Assembly: GCF_004010195.1 (NCBI RefSeq)
Contig: NC_057711.1
Span: 3,616,460-3,652,095, forward strand
DNA from: Chiloscyllium plagiosum
Lineage: Eukaryota
Length of the DNA stretch: 35,636 nucleotides
Reading direction: 5' to 3'
Position 1 is the stretch's first letter; each line of letters opens with the position of its first letter. The position numbers and the translations under genes were made by a program. Positions 11,683 through 32,128 of this stretch are shown here, in pieces. The notes under the pieces are model-generated. The model was given only the letters and a program-made list of their open reading frames with translations. It ran no database searches and was not told the origin of the DNA.

Positions 11683-11793
11683 CTCCTTTCTTCCTGAAGG
11701 CAATGAAGATGATGACAATGATGATGATGATGAGGAGGAGGATGAGCAATGAAATCATCAGTGGATTTACAGTGGTGGGCTCAGTCTTCTTCA
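11683..11793 (-). CDS. Transmembrane exon of the V-set receptor: (V)KKTEPTTVNP-LMISLLILLLIIIIIVIIFIAF-RKKG
   Basis: Acceptor ttcttgctgtattacag; 111 nt in phase 1-1, in frame with V3; 22 uncharged hydrophobic residues followed by an RKK stop-transfer; donor GAG|gtgggt. Read-through gives GGFCRA* (stop at 11665-11663). Confidence 0.85.
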
Positions 11794-12730: not shown

Positions 12731-15248
12731 AATAGGGTGACTTTTCCTGATGCTATTTCTGGTGTATCGGTCAGTATCAGATGGTCTGTCCAGTTTCATT
12801 TTTTACCTTTGACATTTTGCAGCTTGAGTATCACTGAGTTGTTTGCTTGGCTATTACAGAATGCAATTAATAGTCCATCAGCTTGCTGTAGGTGTGGAGT
12901 CATTTGTAGGCAGGGCAAGGGACAGAAATCATGGACCTGGTGCTGTTCCTTGCCCAGGTTCGAACCCAACCTAGAGAGCTCTCACCCATTGCCCTGACCT
13001 GACACAATAAACTCAGTTATTGAACACTGATGTACCATCCACCCCTGTCTTGTGCCCGACATTTAGGGCAGGCCATGTGAGAATGGAGATTTGATTCCTT
13101 AAAGGGCATGACTGAATCAGAAATGTTTTTCCAAGTATCAGCAATGGTCAAATGCACCCATTAGATTAGCTTTTCATTTAAATTCCAGATGTTTAAAATT
13201 TTACATTCTGCTGTGGTGGGATTTGAACCCATGGCTCCAACTTGGGTTTGTGGTTTAGTCGCCCAGTGACAGGAGCAGTATACTACCACTTCCCTTTATA
13301 CACCATGTGTGAATGTAAAGCTAGGATAGGTTCCACATGGCTGTGATGCCTCACATCAAATGGACACTGGGGGAGTGTATTTGCACTGATGGACCTATTC
13401 CTGATGAAGGTGTGTATAATTTAATTGTCACCAAGAGGGACACATTAGACTGTTGCACCTTCCTGCTTGAGAAGATGAACTCAATGTCAGTATAATTTGG
13501 GGTTGTTTGGAAATTGAGCTGAATGTTCTGACATCAGAATGCACCTTAAAGGATCAGCACGTCAAATTATTTTAAATATTTTCAAAGTCAAATTTGAAAA
13601 CAAAAATACTGCAGATTCTGGAAATTTGAAATAAACATCAAAATACTGCAAACACTCAGCAGGCTAGACAATATCTGTAGAGAGAAACAGGATTATCATT
13701 TTAATTAGAGTGTCATATAGTCATAGAGATGTAAAGCACGGAAACAGAACCTCTCAGTCCAACCTGTCCATGCCATCCAGATATCCTACATTAATCTCGT
13801 CCCATTTGCCAGCATTTGGGCCATACCCCTGTAAACCCTTCCTAGTCATAGAGTCATGAGATGTACAGCACAGAAACAGACCCTTCAGTCCAACTCATCC
13901 ATGCTGACCAGATATCTCAACTCAATCTAGTCCCACCTGTCAGCACCCGGCCAATATCTCTCCAAACCCTTCCTATTCATATACCCATCCAGATTCCTCT
14001 CAAATGTTGCAATTGTACCAGATTCCACTACATTCTCTGGCAGCTCATTCCATACATGTACCACCCTCTGAGTGAAAAAGTTGCCCCTTAGGTCTCATTT
14101 ACATCTTTCCCCTCTCACTCTAAACCTATGCCCTCCAGTTCTGGACTCCCCCACCCCAGGGAAAAGACTTTGTCTATTTATCCTATCCATGCCCCTCATG
14201 ATTTTATAAACCTCTGTAAGGTCACCCGTCAACCTCCGACACTCTAGGGAAAACTGCCCTGGCCTATTCAACCTTTCCCTATGGCTCAGATCCTCCAACC
14301 CTGGCAACGTCCTTGTAAATCTTTTACAAACCCTTTCAAGTTTCACAACATCTTTCCAATAGGAAGGAGACCAAAATTGTACGCAATATTCCAACATTGG
14401 CCTAACCAATGTCCAGCCTATGATGCTCCAGGGAAGGTAATATGACCTCCCAACTCCTGTACTCAATACTCTGACCAATAAAGGAAAGCATACCAAACAC
14501 CTTCTTCACTATCCTATCTACCTGCGACTTCACTTTCAAGGAGCTATGAACCTGCACTCCAAGGTCTCTTTGTTCAGCAACACTCCCTCAGACCTTACCA
14601 TTAAGTGTATAAGTCTGCTAAGATTTGCTTTCCCAAAATGCAGCACCTCACATTTATCTAAAATAAACTCCATCTGCCACTTCTCAGCCCATTGGCCCAT
14701 CTGGTCAAGATCCCGTTGTAATCTGAGGTAACCTTCTTCCTGTAATCTGAGGTAACCGCTACACCTCCAATTTTGGTGTCATCAGCAAACTTCATGTATC
14801 CATCCAGATGCCTTTTAAATGTTGTAATTGTACCATTCTCCATCACTTCTTCTGGCAGCTATTTCCATGTATGCACTACTCTCTGCAAGAAAAAGTTGTC
14901 CCTTATATCCCTTTTAAATCTTTCCTGTCTCACCTCAAGCCCTCTAGTTCTGGACTCCCCTACACTGGGGAAAAAGACCTTGATTATTCACCCTATCCAT
15001 GACCCTCATGATTTTATAAACTTCTATGAGGTTTCCCCTCAGCCTATGATGCTCCAGGGAAAGTAACCCCAGCCCATTCAGCCTCTCCCTGTAGCTCAAA
15101 CCCTCCAACCCTGGCAAAACCCTGTAAATCTTTTTCGAACTCTTCAAGTTTAACATCGTTCTTACAGCAGGAAGACCGGAATTGAATGCAGTATTCCAAA
15201 AGTGGCCTAACCAAAGTCCTGTACAGCCACAGCTATAATACTCAGTGA

Positions 15249-15460
15249 GGTAAAAACAATGACTGCAGATGCTGGAAACCAGATTCTGGATCAATGGTGC
15301 TGGAAGAGCACAGCAATTCAGGCAACATCGAGGAGCTTCAGCAAAATCGACGTTTCGGGCAAAAGCCCTTCATCAGGAAGGGCTTTTGCCCGAAACATCG
15401 ATTTTGCTGAAGCTCCTCGATGCTGCCTGAATTGCTGTGCTCTTCCAGCACCATTGATCC
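15249..15460. mobile_element. Non-autonomous Penelope-like terminal element arranged as an inverted repeat, with a target-site duplication
   Basis: Arms of about 85 bp are inverted around 15375; the element is flanked by the direct repeat CTATAATACTCAGTG (15233-15247 and 15460-15474); same family as 24466 and 31709. Confidence 0.75.
15343..15379 (-). ncRNA. Minimal hammerhead ribozyme motif
   Basis: Minus strand UUC-CUGAUGA-A-GGGC-UUUU-GCCC-GAAA-C-GUC-GAUUUU: intact core, 4-bp stem II, loopless palindromic stem III (ACGU), GUC cleavage triplet. Stem I is weak in this copy. Confidence 0.65.
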
Positions 15461-16070: not shown

Positions 16071-16418
16071 CATGTACCTGCAGCCGAGTGTCTTTCTGGA
16101 TCAGATACTGAGAGTTGAGTCTTGACCTGTATTCTACATGACACAGGTAAGTGTGATTGTCTCTCACACTCAGCTGGTTTATCCTGGTCGAGGCGTTTCC
16201 CTCCTCTGGGTTCCCGATGAGCTCGTACCGATTTCCACTGTGTACAGTTGTCCAATTTCCCTGGGATTGGGCTTTAAATATAACAATGTGTTGGTAGGGC
16301 TCCTTCCTCATCCAGGTAACAGTGGTCAGAGTGTGGGAGTCCCAGCTCCTGAAGATACAGGGTAAAGTAACTGAATCTCCCTCAGTCCCACTCACCACTG
16401 AGACATTTCCCTGAGCAG
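16071..16418 (-). CDS. Ig V-set exon 3 of the Siglec-15-like receptor
   Basis: Acceptor ttcctttcctcag; 348 nt in phase 1-1; donor G|gtaaga; motifs GDSVTLPC, VTWMRKEPY, RYELIGNP, DNHTYLCHVEY and TRLQVH. Confidence 0.92.
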
Positions 16419-18472: not shown

Positions 18473-18972
18473 NNNNNNNNNNNNNNNNNNNNNNNNNNNN
18501 NNNNNNNNNNNNNNNNNNNNNNNNNNNNNNNNNNNNNNNNNNNNNNNNNNNNNNNNNNNNNNNNNNNNNNNNNNNNNNNNNNNNNNNNNNNNNNNNNNNN
18601 NNNNNNNNNNNNNNNNNNNNNNNNNNNNNNNNNNNNNNNNNNNNNNNNNNNNNNNNNNNNNNNNNNNNNNNNNNNNNNNNNNNNNNNNNNNNNNNNNNNN
18701 NNNNNNNNNNNNNNNNNNNNNNNNNNNNNNNNNNNNNNNNNNNNNNNNNNNNNNNNNNNNNNNNNNNNNNNNNNNNNNNNNNNNNNNNNNNNNNNNNNNN
18801 NNNNNNNNNNNNNNNNNNNNNNNNNNNNNNNNNNNNNNNNNNNNNNNNNNNNNNNNNNNNNNNNNNNNNNNNNNNNNNNNNNNNNNNNNNNNNNNNNNNN
18901 NNNNNNNNNNNNNNNNNNNNNNNNNNNNNNNNNNNNNNNNNNNNNNNNNNNNNNNNNNNNNNNNNNNNNNNN
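18473..18972. other. Assembly gap (500 N)
   Basis: Run of N. Confidence 1.
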
Positions 18973-19061
18973 AATGAGAGGCAGTTGTAATGTCTATTCA
19001 TAAGCAATCCAGGATACTGGGACAGAGTTTCAGTACCCACCATGGCAGCTGCTGGAATTTC

Positions 19062-19448
19062 AATTCAGTTATTTCATTTGGAATTAAATGGTAACCATGA
19101 AACCATTATCAATTTTTGGAAAAAATCCATCTGGTCGACTGATAATTTTTAGAGAAGAAAAATGCCTTCTCTAAAAGGCATGTGGTCTGGCCTACTGGTG
19201 ACTCCAGTCCCACAGCAACAGATGTGACCCTAAAATGTCCTCAGAAATGCCCAAGGGAAATTCAGTTATTTCATTTGGAATTAAATGGTAACCATGAAAC
19301 CATTATCAATTTTTGGAAAAAATCCATCTGGTCGACTGATAATTTTTAGAGAAGAGAAATGCCATTCTTATGTGGTCTGGCCTACTTGTGACTCCAGTCC
19401 CACAGCAACAGATTTGACCCTAAAATGTCCTCAGAAATGCCCAAGGGA
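19062..19448 (+). repeat. Direct tandem duplication, unit about 197 bp, inside an old dispersed repeat
   Basis: AATTCAGTTATTTCATTTGGAATTAAATGG...CCAAGGGA begins at 19062 and again at 19259; the copies differ by a few substitutions and a small indel. Confidence 0.9.
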
Positions 19449-22879: not shown

Positions 22880-23233
22880 CGGGTATGACATGCACCCGAC
22901 TCTCTTTCTGGATCAGACACTGAATATCCTCTTGTAATGATATGTATTCCACCACACACAGATAAGTATGATTGTCCCTCACATTCAGCTGGTTTATCCT
23001 GGTCGAGGCGTTTCCCTCGTTTGGATTCCCGATGAGCTCATACCGATTTCCACCATTTACAGTTATCCAATTTCTTTGTGGTTGGACTATAAATGTAACA
23101 ATGCGTTGATAGGGCTCCTTCCTCATCCAGGTAACAGTACTCAGGTTGAGATGTCCCATGATCCTGAAGGAACAGGGTAAAGTAACTGAATCTCCCACTG
23201 TCCCATTCACCACTGGGACATCTCCCTGAGATG
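22880..23233 (-). CDS. Ig V-set exon 2 of the Siglec-15-like receptor
   Basis: Acceptor ttgttctatcctcag; 354 nt in phase 1-1; donor G|gtaaga; motifs GDSVTLPCSF, VTWMRKEPY, RYELIGNP and DNHTYLCVVEY. Confidence 0.92.
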
Positions 23234-23999: not shown

Positions 24000-25770
24000 G
24001 GTAAGAATGGAACCAGACTACTCTGTATTGAGTGAGGCAGCAAAAACAATGAGAGCAGTCACAGCCGTGTCAATCCTGTAAAATCCTTTTCATTAACATC
24101 CTCCTCATTAACATCTGGAAGCCAGTGCAAAAAGTGGATGAGTTGTCTCACAGACTGGTCAACTAACAGTTTCACGGAGACAAACTCATGGAATCATAAC
24201 TCACAATGTCTCAGGCATTCCTATTGTCATTCCTGGATATATCCTGTCCCATTGGCAGGACACACCTGGAAGAAATTGAGGCACTGTGATATACATTTGG
24301 GAGGGGATTGCACTGGGAGTCCCCAACATGAAGTCCCCAACTTAAAGATAACATTGTTAGCCCATGGAACCACAAACTGTAACCTCGTGATCCATGTTAA
24401 CTCCCCACACCACCATTCCCATCAGTGAAGAGTCCAGGTGAGTATGCTGTGAGCAATATCATGGTGGTAAAAACAATGACTGCAGATGCTGGAAACCAGA
24501 TCCTGGATTAGTGATGCTGAAGTCAACAGCAGTTCAGGCAGCATCCGAAGACAGGCAAAATCCGAGGACAGGCAAAATCGACGTTTCGGGCAAAAGCCCT
24601 TCACCTTTTGCCCGAAACGTCGATTTTGCCTGTCTTCGGATGCTGCCTGAACTGCTGTGCTCTTCCAGCACCACTAATCCAGAATGTGAGCAACATCAGG
24701 CAAACCTAAAAATGTGTGGCCCCACGCTGAAACTAGAACCTTCAGGACTTCTTGCTTGTCATACAGCCAGAAACACCACACAACAGAGTCATCATATAAC
24801 CAATGGATCATATGGCTCAGCTGTCCTGAATGGACCATTACTGGTGGTGGACAATTGCTGTACTAGCTGGTTCAGTACAGTTACAACACTGGGATTTCCC
24901 CAACAATTTGTAAAGTTGCCTGGGTATGTCCTGTACACAAAAAGTGAAGTGAGTCTGATTAGGCCAATTACTGCTCTTTCAGTGCACTCTTGATCATCAA
25001 TAAAGTGATGGAAAATGTGAGTGACTGCCCTTAACATCAAGGCCACAGTCAAATGTGTGTAGCATCAAGGAAGCTGAGCAAAACTGAACTCAATGGGAAT
25101 TGGGGAAGAATCTTCCACTGGTTTGAGTCATACCTGGCACACAGGAAGATGGTTTTGGTTTTTGGAGGTCGGTCATCTCAGCTCCAGGATCTATCTGCAG
25201 AAGTTCTTCAGGGTAGTATCCTAGGCCCAACCATCTTCAACTGCTTCACCAATGACTTTCCCGTCATCAAAAGTTCAGAAGTGAGGATGGATGTTCACTG
25301 ATCAACATGGGATGAAGAACATCACCACCTACAAGCTTTCCTCCAAGATGTGCACCATCCTGATTTGGAGATATTTCACCATTCTGTCAGTATCACTGGG
25401 GCAAAATCCTGGAACTCCTTTAACAAGTACATCATGATGGAGTACAGCAGTTCAAGAAGGCAGCTCATCATTCCCTTCTCCAGGGCAATTAGGGATGGCG
25501 AATGAAGGCTGACTGAGCATGTGGTGCTCACATCCCTTTGAACAATTGCAAGATAAATATAGTTCCAAGCCAGGGTGGTGGTGGAGGCAGGTACAACAGG
25601 CATTTAAGGGACTTTTACGTAAGTACGTGAATACACAAGAAATTGAGGGTATGAACCAATAGCAGGCTGAAAGGATTAGTTTCATTTTGTGTCATGTTTG
25701 GCACAATAATGTGGGCCGAAGGGCCCATTCCTGTTTTGTACAGTTCTATCTTCTATGTTCTGAACCCTCA
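24000..25770 (+). mobile_element. Highly degenerate CR1/L2-type LINE remnants
   Basis: WFESYLAHRKMV...QGSILGPTIFNCFTND (ORF 25053..25301), RPITAL, and a CR1 tail near 25750. Confidence 0.7.
24466..24684. mobile_element. Penelope-like palindromic terminal element with a target-site duplication; hammerhead 5' core truncated at the symmetry centre
   Basis: Same GGTAAAAACAATGACTGCAGATGCTGGAAACCAGAT start as 15249; inverted arms around 24605; flanking TGTGAGCAA(T/C)ATCA at 24448-24461 and 24685-24698. Confidence 0.75.
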
Positions 25771-28800: not shown

Positions 28801-29184
28801 CTGTCACTTCCAGATATGTTCCTGTCTGAATTCCAAAACTGCCGATATTGAGCATCACAAAACACAAGTAAGAACCGGCATCATCCCATCTCACTCTCTC
28901 TATCATTAATGAGACATCGTTGTTGGTAAGGTTTCCCACGAATCTGAATCGTTTCCCACCGTCCTGCTGTATCACATTCTCACACAGCTCACCCTGGGAA
29001 TGGTCTGGCCCAGGATATATACAATTAAAGATAACATGCGTGCTAGATTTCATCCATATAATGGAGCCAGTGAGTGTGAGATGAGTGTCAGGGTGGGTGA
29101 AGCTGCAGGGTAAGACAGCGGTTCTTCCTTCTTCAGCCCTCACGTCGTCCGCAACTGTCATTGACCAACCTTTGTCAGAATACG
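28801..29184 (-). CDS. Ig V-set exon 1, Siglec-15-like (sialic-acid-binding Arg replaced by Phe)
   Basis: Long polypyrimidine acceptor ...ccctcacag; 384 nt in phase 1-1; donor CAG|gtaagg. WSMTVADDVRAEEGRTAVLPCSFTHP...IFNC...ELC...RFRFVGNLTNNDVSLMIERV...YLCFV matches my recollection of human SIGLEC15 WSMQVPPEVSAEAGDAAVLPCTFTHP...VFRC...ELC...RFRLLGNPRRNDLSLRVERL...YFCRV. Confidence 0.92.
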
Positions 29185-30317
29185 CTGTGAGGGTGGGGGA
29201 GAGAGAGGGAGAGAGACAGAATATGAACACAGGACAGACATCAAACAGTGAAGTAAAGCACTGAATCTGTTATTATGGATATAACATCGTACAGTTGTTG
29301 TATCTGAAAGGACTGTTGACAGTGTTGAATAAGCTACAGACTGGAGTACAACATGGGCTTCAGGTGGTTTGTAAACATCCTGAGATTAGATTGTGAGTGT
29401 TTGTTGCTGTTGGTTGATGAGAGGGTTTAGTGTCTGAGAGTTGTTTGAACTTTTCATTGTTCGAGGACACCAAGGGTGATCTTAAGAGCAGATTTCAGGG
29501 CATTCCCTACAGAACCTTTTCTGTTTCTCATCACTTTCTACTCTATTACTGAGCCAGCTTTTAGCAACCTGGCTCATTCATCAGTAGTAGCAGGGGGATG
29601 CAGTATGCAGCGGAGGTAAAGCAGAGGGAAAGACAGATAGAAATAAAGAAGGAGAACTGAAGTAAAAAAGTAAATTCACCAGAAAACTGCTGTCTTATTA
29701 GAGAAACATGATTGGTAATGATTTAAGCTGAGGGTCGCTATGCCTCAGGCAAGGGGCACGGTTGAGAAGGTGGGACCTTCATAGTCCCCTCAGACAGAAT
29801 GGGAATTAAACCTGCATTGTTGGCATCACTCTACATCACAAACTAACTATCCAGCCAACTGAGCTAACTGATTGCAGATTAGATGTGTAAGGGTGGTGGA
29901 ATGAAGAAGAAGAGGTGATGTTGCAACATTATTCAAAGAGTCCATTGCTGTAATGAGATGGATGATATCTTGAAATCATTCTCAAGTGAGGCTACATGGT
30001 ACATTGTAAAAACAAACTCCTCCAACACCACCCCTGTCTCCAACCGTCAAGTCAATTTTGTATCCAATTGGCATTCCTTCCCTGAATCCCACATGATCTA
30101 ACTTTATTCATTGGTCCACCATATGGAACCTTGGACAATGGCTTTACTAAAATCCATGTAAACAATATCTCCCCCTCTGCCTTCATTGGTCTTTTTGGTT
30201 ATATCCTCAAAAACCTCAATCAAGTTTTGATTTGGAGATGCCGGTGTTGGACTGGGGTGTACAAAGTTAAAAATCACACAACACCAGGTTATAGTCCAAC
30301 AGGTTTAATTGGAAGCA

Positions 30318-30352
30318 CACTAGCTTTCGGAGTGACGCTCCTTCATCAGGTA
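30318..30352 (-). ncRNA. Minimal hammerhead ribozyme motif (left arm)
   Basis: Minus strand UAC-CUGAUGA-A-GGAG-CGUCA-CUCC-GAAA-G-CUA-GUG. Confidence 0.65.
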
Positions 30353-30427
30353 ATTGTCGAGGGCTCAATTGTAACACAGCAAAAATTTTTGCTATAAATT
30401 CTGTGTTACGATCGAGCCCTCCACAAT

Positions 30428-30462
30428 CACCTGATGAAGGAGCGTCGCTCCGAAAGCTAGTG
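30428..30462 (+). ncRNA. Minimal hammerhead ribozyme motif (right arm)
   Basis: CAC-CUGAUGA-A-GGAGC-GUC-GCUCC-GAAA-G-CUA-GUG: stem I CAC/GUG, 5-bp stem II, palindromic stem III AGCU, NUH triplet CUA. Confidence 0.7.
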
Positions 30463-30892
30463 TGCTTCCAATTAAACCTGTTGGACTATAACCTGGTGCT
30501 GTGTGATATTTAACTATGTACACCCCAGTCCAACACCGGCATCTCCAAATAATTTGTTAACAGAGAGACAATCCGTGGCACAGTTACAGACTGCTCCAAG
30601 CTTTCCTCCCGAGCAGATGCACAGCGCGTTGTTATTTCGTGTTGAGTGCAGTGACCCCCTTCTCGAAACTCTCCACAGATCCTGCTCCCTTTCTCCAGCA
30701 ATTACTGTCCCCTTCTGCTACAGCCTTGCAGTAGCCCAGGTTCTGTTGTTCTGTTTTGCTCACAGCTCCTGAAAAGTTTCCCCAACGAGTTACCGCGACA
30801 GATGTCAAGGGAACTGGAAACATGAGAGATGTTCCAGTCTGCCCACCGCTCTCAGCGCTGGGAGGCTGAGCAAGGTTGGAACCCTGTACCTC

Positions 30893-30919
30893 CCTCCTCC
30901 TCCTCCTCCTCCTCCTCCT
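30893..30919. repeat. (CCT)n microsatellite about 60 nt into the TTPA intron
   Basis: About nine CCT units are visible. Confidence 0.9.
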
Positions 30920-30979
30920 GCGGCTGCTGGGAATTGTGTGTCTTTGTTGCTAACCCTGTCCTCCTGCCTTTGAGCTCAC

Positions 30980-31189
30980 CTTCAGTGCCTGTTCGATGTT
31001 GAAGTCCCGGGCTCTCAGGAACCTGAGCAGGAATTCATTCCGCAGACCGAGCGGCCAGTGCGCGCTCTCGCCCAGCGCCCGCTCCCGGAGCTCCGCGATA
31101 CAGCGCACCGCTGCCTCCGAGTACAGGCGCTGCTGCGGCGGATCCTCGGCGCAGGAGCTGCCCAGCTGCGGACACCCCTCTGCTGACAT
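30980..31189 (-). CDS. TTPA: Alpha-tocopherol transfer protein, coding exon 1 (CRAL-TRIO N domain)
   Basis: 70 codons ending IAELRERA...WPLGLRNEFLLRFLRARDFNIEQALK, then a phase-0 donor AAG|gtgagc. The RARDF motif (rather than RARKF) and the intron position agree with vertebrate TTPA exon 1. Confidence 0.8.
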
Positions 31190-31574
31190 AGCACCCCCCT
31201 CCTCCTCCTCCCTGTCTCTCTCCGAGCCCTCAGTAACCGCTCGGCCTCTCCCCTCTAAGATCCCACTTTCAGCACCATTCCACCTCCAAGTTACTCCGGA
31301 ACTTTACTTGTAGGCGGCACCCAGGCGCCATCCAATCGCATGTTGGTCTTTCACTCCCCCCCCCCCCCTCCTGTTGATTTGGACACTGCAGGGTGGCAGT
31401 AACTATCTGACTGGGAGCTGATAGCAGAAATAAAGTTTATTTTCAACTGAAACTCTGAAATCTCAGTCTGCACTGGGGAATGCAACAGGCAGTGTTGTTG
31501 TTGTATTCTTTCTCCAACTGCTTCATAGCACCTGCTTCTCTCCACAATTATCCAGTTCATTTTAATCCTACAGT

Positions 31575-31817
31575 CTGGGAGCAGACCATTTGGTCCATCG
31601 AGACCACACTGACACTCCCACCCAGACCCCCCCCCCCATTCCTGTAACCCTGTGTTTCCCATGGCTCATCCACCTAGCCTGCACATCCCTGGGCACCATG
31701 GGCATTTAGGTAAAAACAATGACTGCAGATGCTGGAAACCAGATTCTGGATCAATGGTGCTGGAAGAGCACAGCAGTTCAGGCAGCATCCGAGGAGCTTC
31801 AGCAAAATCGACGTTTC
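31575..31817. mobile_element. HE1-like SINE 3' part interrupted by a Penelope-like terminal element (from 31709) running into a gap
   Basis: SINE tail-like sequence, then GGTAAAAACAATGACTGCAGATGCTGGAAACCAG...AAAATCGACGTTTC, near-identical to the 15249 element. Confidence 0.75.
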
Positions 31818-32128
31818 NNNNNNNNNNNNNNNNNNNNNNNNNNNNNNNNNNNNNNNNNNNNNNNNNNNNNNNNNNNNNNNNNNNNNNNNNNNNNNNNNNN
31901 NNNNNNNNNNNNNNNNNNNNNNNNNNNNNNNNNNNNNNNNNNNNNNNNNNNNNNNNNNNNNNNNNNNNNNNNNNNNNNNNNNNNNNNNNNNNNNNNNNNN
32001 NNNNNNNNNNNNNNNNNNNNNNNNNNNNNNNNNNNNNNNNNNNNNNNNNNNNNNNNNNNNNNNNNNNNNNNNNNNNNNNNNNNNNNNNNNNNNNNNNNNN
32101 NNNNNNNNNNNNNNNNNNNNNNNNNNNN
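31818..32128. other. Assembly gap
   Basis: Run of N. Confidence 1.

What the first reader, a model, noticed from the sequence alone, without database searches (positions are those of the whole stretch)
28801..31189. Immune receptor lies same-strand just behind TTPA exon 1: nested gene, or captured promoter
Seen: an intact TTPA exon 1 with a strong donor and CpG-rich promoter lies only 1.8 kb upstream of V1, and I found no TTPA exon 2 (expected LLxNY..W...) in the next 31 kb. Splicing exon 1 (phase 0) to V1 (phase 1) shifts frame: K|RILTKVGQ*. Inference: either the whole receptor gene sits sense-strand within a TTPA intron 1 longer than 30 kb, so strong receptor exons must be skipped in TTPA mRNA, or this is an orphan duplicate of TTPA exon 1 whose promoter drives the receptor.
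Basis: partly seen in the sequence, partly recalled or inferred. Interest (0 to 1): 0.7.

Follow-up and report, generated by a model that had tools for sequence, protein, structure and literature searches.

The report
Likely misassembled TTPA exon beside transposon
The vitamin-E-transfer (TTPA) exon next to this shark immune-receptor gene is one of eight substitution-free copies of a stretch of the real TTPA gene on another chromosome, each attached to the end of a Penelope jumping gene, and because contigs from two other animals show no sign of these copies it is likely an assembly error rather than a nested gene or a captured promoter.

Summary
Neither proposed reading holds. The complete TTPA gene lies on contig C4 (exon 2 is 23.7 kb after exon 1, YTH-domain gene 52 kb away), so nothing is nested. 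V1 (Siglec-15-like, one of about 20 paralogues) has its own in-frame leader exon 10.4 kb upstream, so the TTPA piece sits in the receptor's intron 1.

The piece is one of 8 extra copies, all starting at the tail of a Penelope-like element that sits in TTPA intron 1. They total 4,934 nt with 0 substitutions, while the flanking arms are 2.4% diverged. Contigs from two other animals show one unbranched copy, and one animal has two variant bases with no assembly-type base listed at one of them. The window also lacks 975 nt that its paralogues keep here, and ends in an N gap.

Best reading: mis-filled gap at a transposon palindrome (0.80). Rival: real Penelope-linked copying private to the assembled animal (0.15). 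Earlier scan notes describe similar Penelope-carried exons elsewhere in this genome; those need the same read test.

The parts
30551..31817 (-). Copy of the C4 TTPA locus: 429 nt of intron 1, exon 1, promoter region, and a fragment of a second hammerhead-bearing repeat at its far end; likely mis-filled sequence
   Evidence: Identical to G000:C4 source except a C-run 6 nt longer
30980..31189 (-). TTPA exon 1 coding part (70 codons, phase-0 donor GTGAGC)
30383..30550 (+). Penelope-like pLTR arm with hammerhead core (CTGATGA...GAAA) and 33-36 nt tail, running straight into the TTPA copy; same palindrome centre as the C6 copy
   Evidence: 802 nt 99.4% identical to C6 copy
30230..30379 (-). Inverted Penelope-like arm with tail; left end of an insertion that is probably real and polymorphic
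   Evidence: Absent from paralogue C101662; X1 contig 30134-30250 matches exactly but reaches only 21 nt into the arm
31818..32128 (.). 311-N assembly gap ending the TTPA copy; 975 nt of old LINE kept by paralogues between 30229 and 32129 is missing from the window
28801..29184 (-). V1 exon, Siglec-15-like V-set domain, Phe where Siglec-15 has Arg in YFCRV. Its own leader exon lies outside the window at G000:C2:3656002-3656062 (-)
   Evidence: (7zoz, E 2.4e-14)
22880..23233 (-). V2 exon of the receptor, V-set
   Evidence: boundaries read by eye
16071..16418 (-). V3 exon of the receptor, V-set
   Evidence: boundaries read by eye
11683..11793 (-). Probable transmembrane exon, no charged residue in the hydrophobic stretch; link to V1-V3 inferred, not shown by RNA
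   Evidence: Read by eye

Best explanation
The TTPA exon 1 in this window is likely not real DNA at this place but sequence of the C4 TTPA locus that was likely written into an assembly gap beside a Penelope-like insertion in intron 1 of a Siglec-15-like receptor gene. Shown: the true TTPA gene is on C4 and has a Penelope-like insertion in intron 1; 8 other sites carry arm + tail + TTPA flank cut at different lengths, with no substitution; the receptor has its own leader. Inferred: at each site an assembly step extended from a real transposon arm through the shared tail into the TTPA flank and stopped at a gap or at the next contig, replacing the true middle. In the window the true content would be about 0.9 kb of transposon plus the 975-nt LINE piece.
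For: (1) 0 substitutions in 4,934 nt over 8 of 8 copies; 40 arms of the family average 2.4% from consensus; even 0.2% would predict about 10. (2) Copies lack the private variants of the source arm, which differs from consensus at 6 of 166 sites. (3) WGS contigs of two other samples (X1, X3) cross all 6 testable truncation points unbroken (30526-30882, 30933-31637), at flat depth 2.7-2.9 and 4.0-4.3. (4) X3 has variant bases at 30590 and 30601, inside all 8 copies; at 30601 the variant contig is the only one laid. (5) Both runs have a shorter C-run than the window. (6) X1 has an exact contig running 21 nt into the window's left arm, yet its TTPA/flank depth ratio (0.48) is like X3's (0.42), which shows no such contig. 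(7) In 4 of 4 copies with a target-site duplication, the piece after TTPA is the collinear continuation of the left antisense arm; the TTPA end abuts a duplication in 0 of 6 ungapped copies. (8) Size budget: 1,899 nt in the window = 975 nt paralogue LINE + 924 nt, close to the 956-nt source insertion. (9) PMC8557442 (passage) states that such structures often break short-read assemblies.
Against: Why one flank is used 8 times is unexplained: of 30 tail+AA sites fetched (of 127), TTPA was the only flank shared beyond 54 nt. Six distal joints are clean, without N and with little or no overlap. Direct arms differ among copies, so they are not one pasted contig. Fill length matches the skipped length in only 1 of 4 cases (C4c 341 vs 338; C6 652 vs 127; C32 780 vs 363; C4b 746 vs about 950). 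The read test rests on contigs of two animals from one study at low depth; the tool warns that contig depth is no copy number and that contigs drop rare variants. The X1 junction contig is below the 31-nt bridging bar, and X2 (same sample) listed nothing at 30188. Only 21 of 105 loose-end rows were shown. No reads of the assembled animal were identified.
Confidence: 0.8

Rival explanations
1. The copies are real and very recent: Penelope machinery copied unspliced TTPA intron, exon and promoter onto new insertions by switching template at the shared tail, in the lineage of the assembled animal only. The window copy would then be a sense-strand exon with a promoter inside the receptor's intron 1.
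For: All 8 copies start at the element's tail and end at different points; 4 of 6 ungapped copies lie between 9-14 nt target-site duplications; clean joints; one favoured donor fits a transcribed source, and X13 has a contig on this intron part; intron-retaining mobilisation is described in Adineta (PMC3846280) and reverse transcription starts inside the RNA without homology (PMC11167929); the family is young (97-98% alike).
Against: None of 6 testable joints appears in two other animals; X1 seems to share the window's left junction without extra TTPA; source-arm variants are not inherited; window and C22 copies run about 545 nt beyond the 5' end of the RNA contig (31272); the window would need a target deletion of at least 660 nt; three or more template switches are needed per event.
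Confidence: 0.15
2. An orphan TTPA exon 1 and promoter are fixed in the species and drive the receptor.
For: Intact CpG-rich promoter region and donor, same strand, 1.8 kb from V1.
Against: Native leader exon is intact, in frame and has 16 genome matches; exon 1-V1 stops after 8 codons; X13 exon-1 contig splices to TTPA exon 2; the copy is not seen in two other animals.
Confidence: 0.02
3. The receptor is nested, sense-strand, in a TTPA intron 1 longer than 30 kb.
For: Only the absence of exon 2 from the window.
Against: The only exons 2-5 found are on C4, 23.7-42 kb behind an exon-1 copy there, near a YTH-domain gene; the spliced RNA end matches C4 exon 2 at 29 of 30 nt.
Confidence: 0.005

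Closest known systems
Insertion units of endonuclease-positive Penelope-like elements (PMC8557442 passages; PMC3846280; PMC4209133 passages)
   Same: 5'-truncated copies, inverted pLTR arm, 30-40 nt tail, hammerhead core in the pLTR, 9-14 nt target-site duplications, RT followed by a Cys-rich linker and GIY-YIG-like end; noted as hard to assemble from short reads.
   Different: Here host sequence follows the tail at 8 sites with no divergence, and independent contigs do not carry it.
[quoted passage not shown]
   Same: Unspliced host DNA next to pLTRs, inside target-site duplications.
   Different: There the gene lies between two direct pLTRs and an allelic empty site was found; here the host piece replaces the middle of an antisense copy, ends at random points and is not seen in other animals.
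Mis-filled gaps in draft assemblies (search listing and abstract starts only, e.g. PMC8848313, PMC9575681)
   Same: Exact duplicate of a unique sequence entered through a repeat, next to an N gap, displacing sequence that paralogues keep.
   Different: Repeated use of a single donor flank is not explained by anything I read; the assembler used is unknown to me.
Siglec-15 (PDB 7zoz)
   Same: Best structural-database match of V1 (E 2.4e-14).
   Different: Arg of YFCRV is Phe; three V exons instead of V + C2; no charged transmembrane residue; about 20 paralogues. That this Arg binds sialic acid and that Siglec-15 has a transmembrane Lys is recalled, not from a call.

Membership tests
TTPA gene (functional locus) | Exon 1 homologous to TTPA N-terminus | tested here: met
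TTPA gene (functional locus) | Exons 2-5 downstream on the same contig | tested here: not met
   Only on C4; none within 20 kb either side of the window
TTPA gene (functional locus) | YTHDF3/GGH neighbours (arrangement recalled) | tested here: inconclusive
   YTH domain at C4:134502433, 52 kb from the C4 copy, none near the window; GGH family search found nothing anywhere in the genome
Nested same-strand gene | Host exons on both sides of the inner gene | tested here: not met
Promoter capture | Captured exon is the first exon; native leader lost or bypassed | tested here: not met
   Native leader intact and in frame, 10.4 kb upstream of V1
Promoter capture | Chimeric transcripts from donor 30980 to V1 | tested here: inconclusive
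   X13 contig splices to TTPA exon 2 only, but contigs drop rare forms and X13 has no cover on V1; X21 raw reads gave almost no cover
Penelope-like element (flanking repeat) | RT domain followed by C-terminal GIY-YIG endonuclease | tested here: inconclusive
   RVT_1 E 7.3e-5, below Pfam cut-off; VYLI...WYIG motif seen by eye but no Pfam hit
Penelope-like element (flanking repeat) | Inverted pLTR, 30-40 nt tail, target-site duplication | tested here: met
   (11-nt duplication at the source; 9-14 nt at four copies)
Penelope-like element (flanking repeat) | Minimal hammerhead motif in the pLTR | tested here: inconclusive
   Core letters and helix II present; Rfam gave no hammerhead hit; cleavage untested
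Real retroelement transduction | Cargo joints present in independent DNA | tested here: not met
   0 of 6 testable joints break the contigs of X1 or X3; the assembled animal's own reads were not tested
Real retroelement transduction | Cargo and carrier share age and source variants | tested here: not met
   0 of 4,934 substitutions against 2.4% arm divergence; source-arm variants absent
Assembly mis-fill | Spanning long reads contradict the join | not testable with these tools
   No long-read run was listed
Siglec (V1) | Conserved sialic-acid-binding Arg on strand F (recalled) | tested here: not met
   YLCFV against YFCRV

The most novel reading that the evidence does not exclude
A Penelope element in TTPA intron 1 seeded a very recent burst, private to one lineage, that carried unspliced intron, exon 1 and the CpG promoter to eight sites by template switching at the tail, one landing sense-strand inside an immune-receptor intron: vertebrate promoter and exon shuffling by Penelope caught in the act.
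Probability: 0.15. Interest if true: 0.7.

Novelty: not a real feature. Interest (0 to 1): 0.17.

Why it matters
As biology, probably not at all: TTPA is a normal gene on C4 and the receptor has its own first exon. As a warning it matters: exact host copies at Penelope palindromes in this assembly look like exon transduction, even with target-site duplications, and earlier scan notes read several such cases as real. Zero divergence, collinear arms on both sides of the cargo and unbranched contigs in other animals make a cheap test. If the rival is true, it would be a base-level record of Penelope moving a vertebrate promoter and exon.

Tried and rejected
Different CRAL-TRIO gene: rejected, 75% identity to shark TTPA against 36-44% for other family hits. 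Segmental duplication: rejected, shared sequence starts at the same arm and flanks are unrelated. Simple 3' read-through from the source arm: does not fit, since copies have longer arms than the 165-nt source arm and lack its variants. Copy from TTPA mRNA: does not fit intron and upstream sequence. microRNA hits in Rfam: all below gathering score, caused by the palindrome. GGH search: no match in the genome, uninformative. Pfam on the endonuclease pieces: none. The protein atlas gave no result. No RNA holder on record was listed; X13 is RNA by guess only, though it has no cover on 31300-31586. X21 raw reads (2% of run) gave 27 laid reads, nearly all on the repeat: uninformative. X13 has no cover on V1: no conclusion on expression. 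Search for the missing 975-nt piece on an unplaced contig found only C101662 and an 80% paralogue (40 of 15,141 candidates scored). Literature searches: Penelope-like + transduction + hammerhead (2 papers), Penelope/shark/exon shuffling/transduction, Siglec-15 + cartilaginous fish + shark (1 unrelated paper) showed no report of this locus in listings; the library lacks most subscription papers, and no supplements were read.

Full report
Observation. The exon at 30980-31189 (-) encodes 70 residues with a CRAL_TRIO_N hit, matches alpha-tocopherol transfer protein in the PDB and is 75% identical to Stegostoma TTPA. V1 is 28801-29184 with phase 1 at both ends; exon 1 joined to it reads K|RILTKVGQ*. 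No other TTPA exon lies in the window or 20 kb either side.

Where the real gene is. Searching the own genome with full TTPA finds one set of exons 2-5, on C4 at 134,577,919-134,596,696, behind an exon-1 copy at C4:134,554,008. A YTH-domain exon lies 52 kb away on the other strand. In run X13 (RNA by guess) the exon-1 contig covers 30980-31272 and its loose end matches C4 exon 2 at 29 of 30 nt. The nested-gene reading is refuted.

The receptor. V1's best PDB match is Siglec-15 (E 2.4e-14), with Phe in place of the Arg of YFCRV. About 20 of 37 genome matches are close paralogues at 63-87% identity, clustered on C2 and unplaced contigs. A 61-nt signal-peptide-like exon with a phase-1 donor lies 10.4 kb upstream of V1 (C2:3,656,002-3,656,062), is 92% conserved in a paralogue, joins V1 in frame and has 16 genome matches. 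No RNA showed this splice; it is inferred. The TTPA piece therefore lies in the receptor's first intron, and promoter capture is not needed.

Nine copies. The exon has 4 full and 2 partial copies; the intron piece has 9 long matches of 11: the C4 source and 8 others on C2, C4 (three), C6, C14, C22 and C32. All begin at the tail of a Penelope-like arm. At the source this is a 5'-truncated insertion in intron 1 with an inverted 165-nt arm and an 11-nt target-site duplication. The family is abundant and young (1,848 candidates, 40 scored, 97-98% alike). A longer copy has RT (RVT_1 E 7.3e-5, under the cut-off) and a GIY-YIG-like end seen by eye only. The copies carry 90, 101, 481, 511, 522, 707, 1,261 and 1,261 nt of TTPA flank; the two longest end at N gaps at the same base.

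Internal signs of a mis-fill. The 4,934 nt of flank have no substitution; only a C-run is 6 nt longer in the window and C22. Forty arms in the loci I held average 2.4% from their consensus (part of this may be subfamily variation). The source arm has private variants that no copy carries. In the four copies with a target-site duplication, the sequence after the TTPA piece is antisense element that continues the left antisense arm further towards the 5' end; removing arm + tail + TTPA leaves an ordinary insertion. The two ungapped copies whose TTPA end meets host DNA directly show no duplication. A 94-98% identical paralogue or allele (C101662) shows the empty site: 975 nt of old LINE between 30229 and 32129, also kept by an 80% paralogue and missing from the window. 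The window's 1,899 nt leave 924 nt for an insertion if that piece is restored; gap sizes are only estimates.

Independent DNA. I laid 5 of the 24 listed runs. X1 and X3 (two samples, one study) each cover the TTPA block with one contig on either side of a skipped CCT repeat, unbroken across the six places where other copies end, at flat depth. X3 differs from all assembly copies at 30590 and 30601, and at 30601 no other contig is laid; fixed extra copies should have supplied the assembly base. Both runs have a shorter C-run than the window. X1 has an exact contig from 30134 to 30250, 21 nt into the left arm, suggesting the transposon itself is real and shared, while its TTPA/flank depth ratio (0.48) resembles X3's (0.42), where only the C101662 type was seen. 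Limits: contigs drop rare variants, depth is no copy number, 21 nt is under the tool's 31-nt bar, X2 from the same sample listed nothing at 30188, and 84 loose-end rows were not shown. These data say the copies are not fixed in the species; they do not directly test the assembled animal.

Against the artefact. Of 127 sites with tail+AA, 30 were fetched; TTPA was the only flank shared over more than 54 nt, so one donor is favoured and I cannot say why. Joints are clean, direct arms fall into several variant groups, and fill length matches skipped length in 1 of 4 cases. Penelope elements can move intron-containing host DNA (PMC3846280, parts 1-3 of 5 read) and start reverse transcription internally without homology (PMC11167929, parts 1-2 of 4 read). 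A real burst private to one lineage stays possible at about 0.15.

Known context. The arm, tail, duplication and hammerhead core match described Penelope insertions, which PMC8557442 (passages) says often trouble short-read assemblies; PMC4209133 (passages) describes the minimal hammerheads. My reading was recorded before I opened earlier scan notes. One of them also suspects a gap-filling error in such an element; three read similar host exons as real captures. I tested none of them.

Verdict. Observation confirmed; nested gene refuted; promoter capture unsupported. Most likely an assembly mis-fill at a real transposon insertion (0.80). Interest 0.17.

Noticed in passing
G000:C2:3.36-3.81 Mb, C2:12.7-13.8 Mb and unplaced contigs; window 28801-29184: An expanded family (about 20 close V exons, 16 leader matches) of Siglec-15-like receptors; the window member has three V exons, no strand-F Arg in V1 and an uncharged transmembrane stretch. 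One literature search found no description. This may deserve its own follow-up.
   Followed up: partly
G000:C4:134554647-134555767: The real TTPA intron 1 holds a Penelope-like insertion 430 nt after exon 1; in X13 the intron part before it has its own contig (depth 13.4 against 56.1 on exon 1), which could be pre-mRNA or early termination at the element.
   Followed up: no
L058 / G000:C101662:28241: The 94-98% identical paralogue or allele lacks 256 nt (window 29120-29375) including the V1 acceptor and first 20 codons; X1 and X3 show mixtures of window-type and C101662-type bases across 29500-30227.
   Followed up: partly
window 31703-31817, 15248-15460, 24466-24688: A second hammerhead-core-bearing palindromic repeat family; one fragment lies upstream of the TTPA promoter at the source, facing the intronic element, and both long copies end inside it at an N gap.
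   Followed up: no
L097 and L098 (C2:94473422, C2:96279312): Two tails share 54 identical flank bases, possibly a small second case of the same duplication.
   Followed up: no
window 19060-19257 and 19260-19440: A local tandem duplication of about 200 nt just after the N gap at 18473-18972, seen by eye.
   Followed up: no
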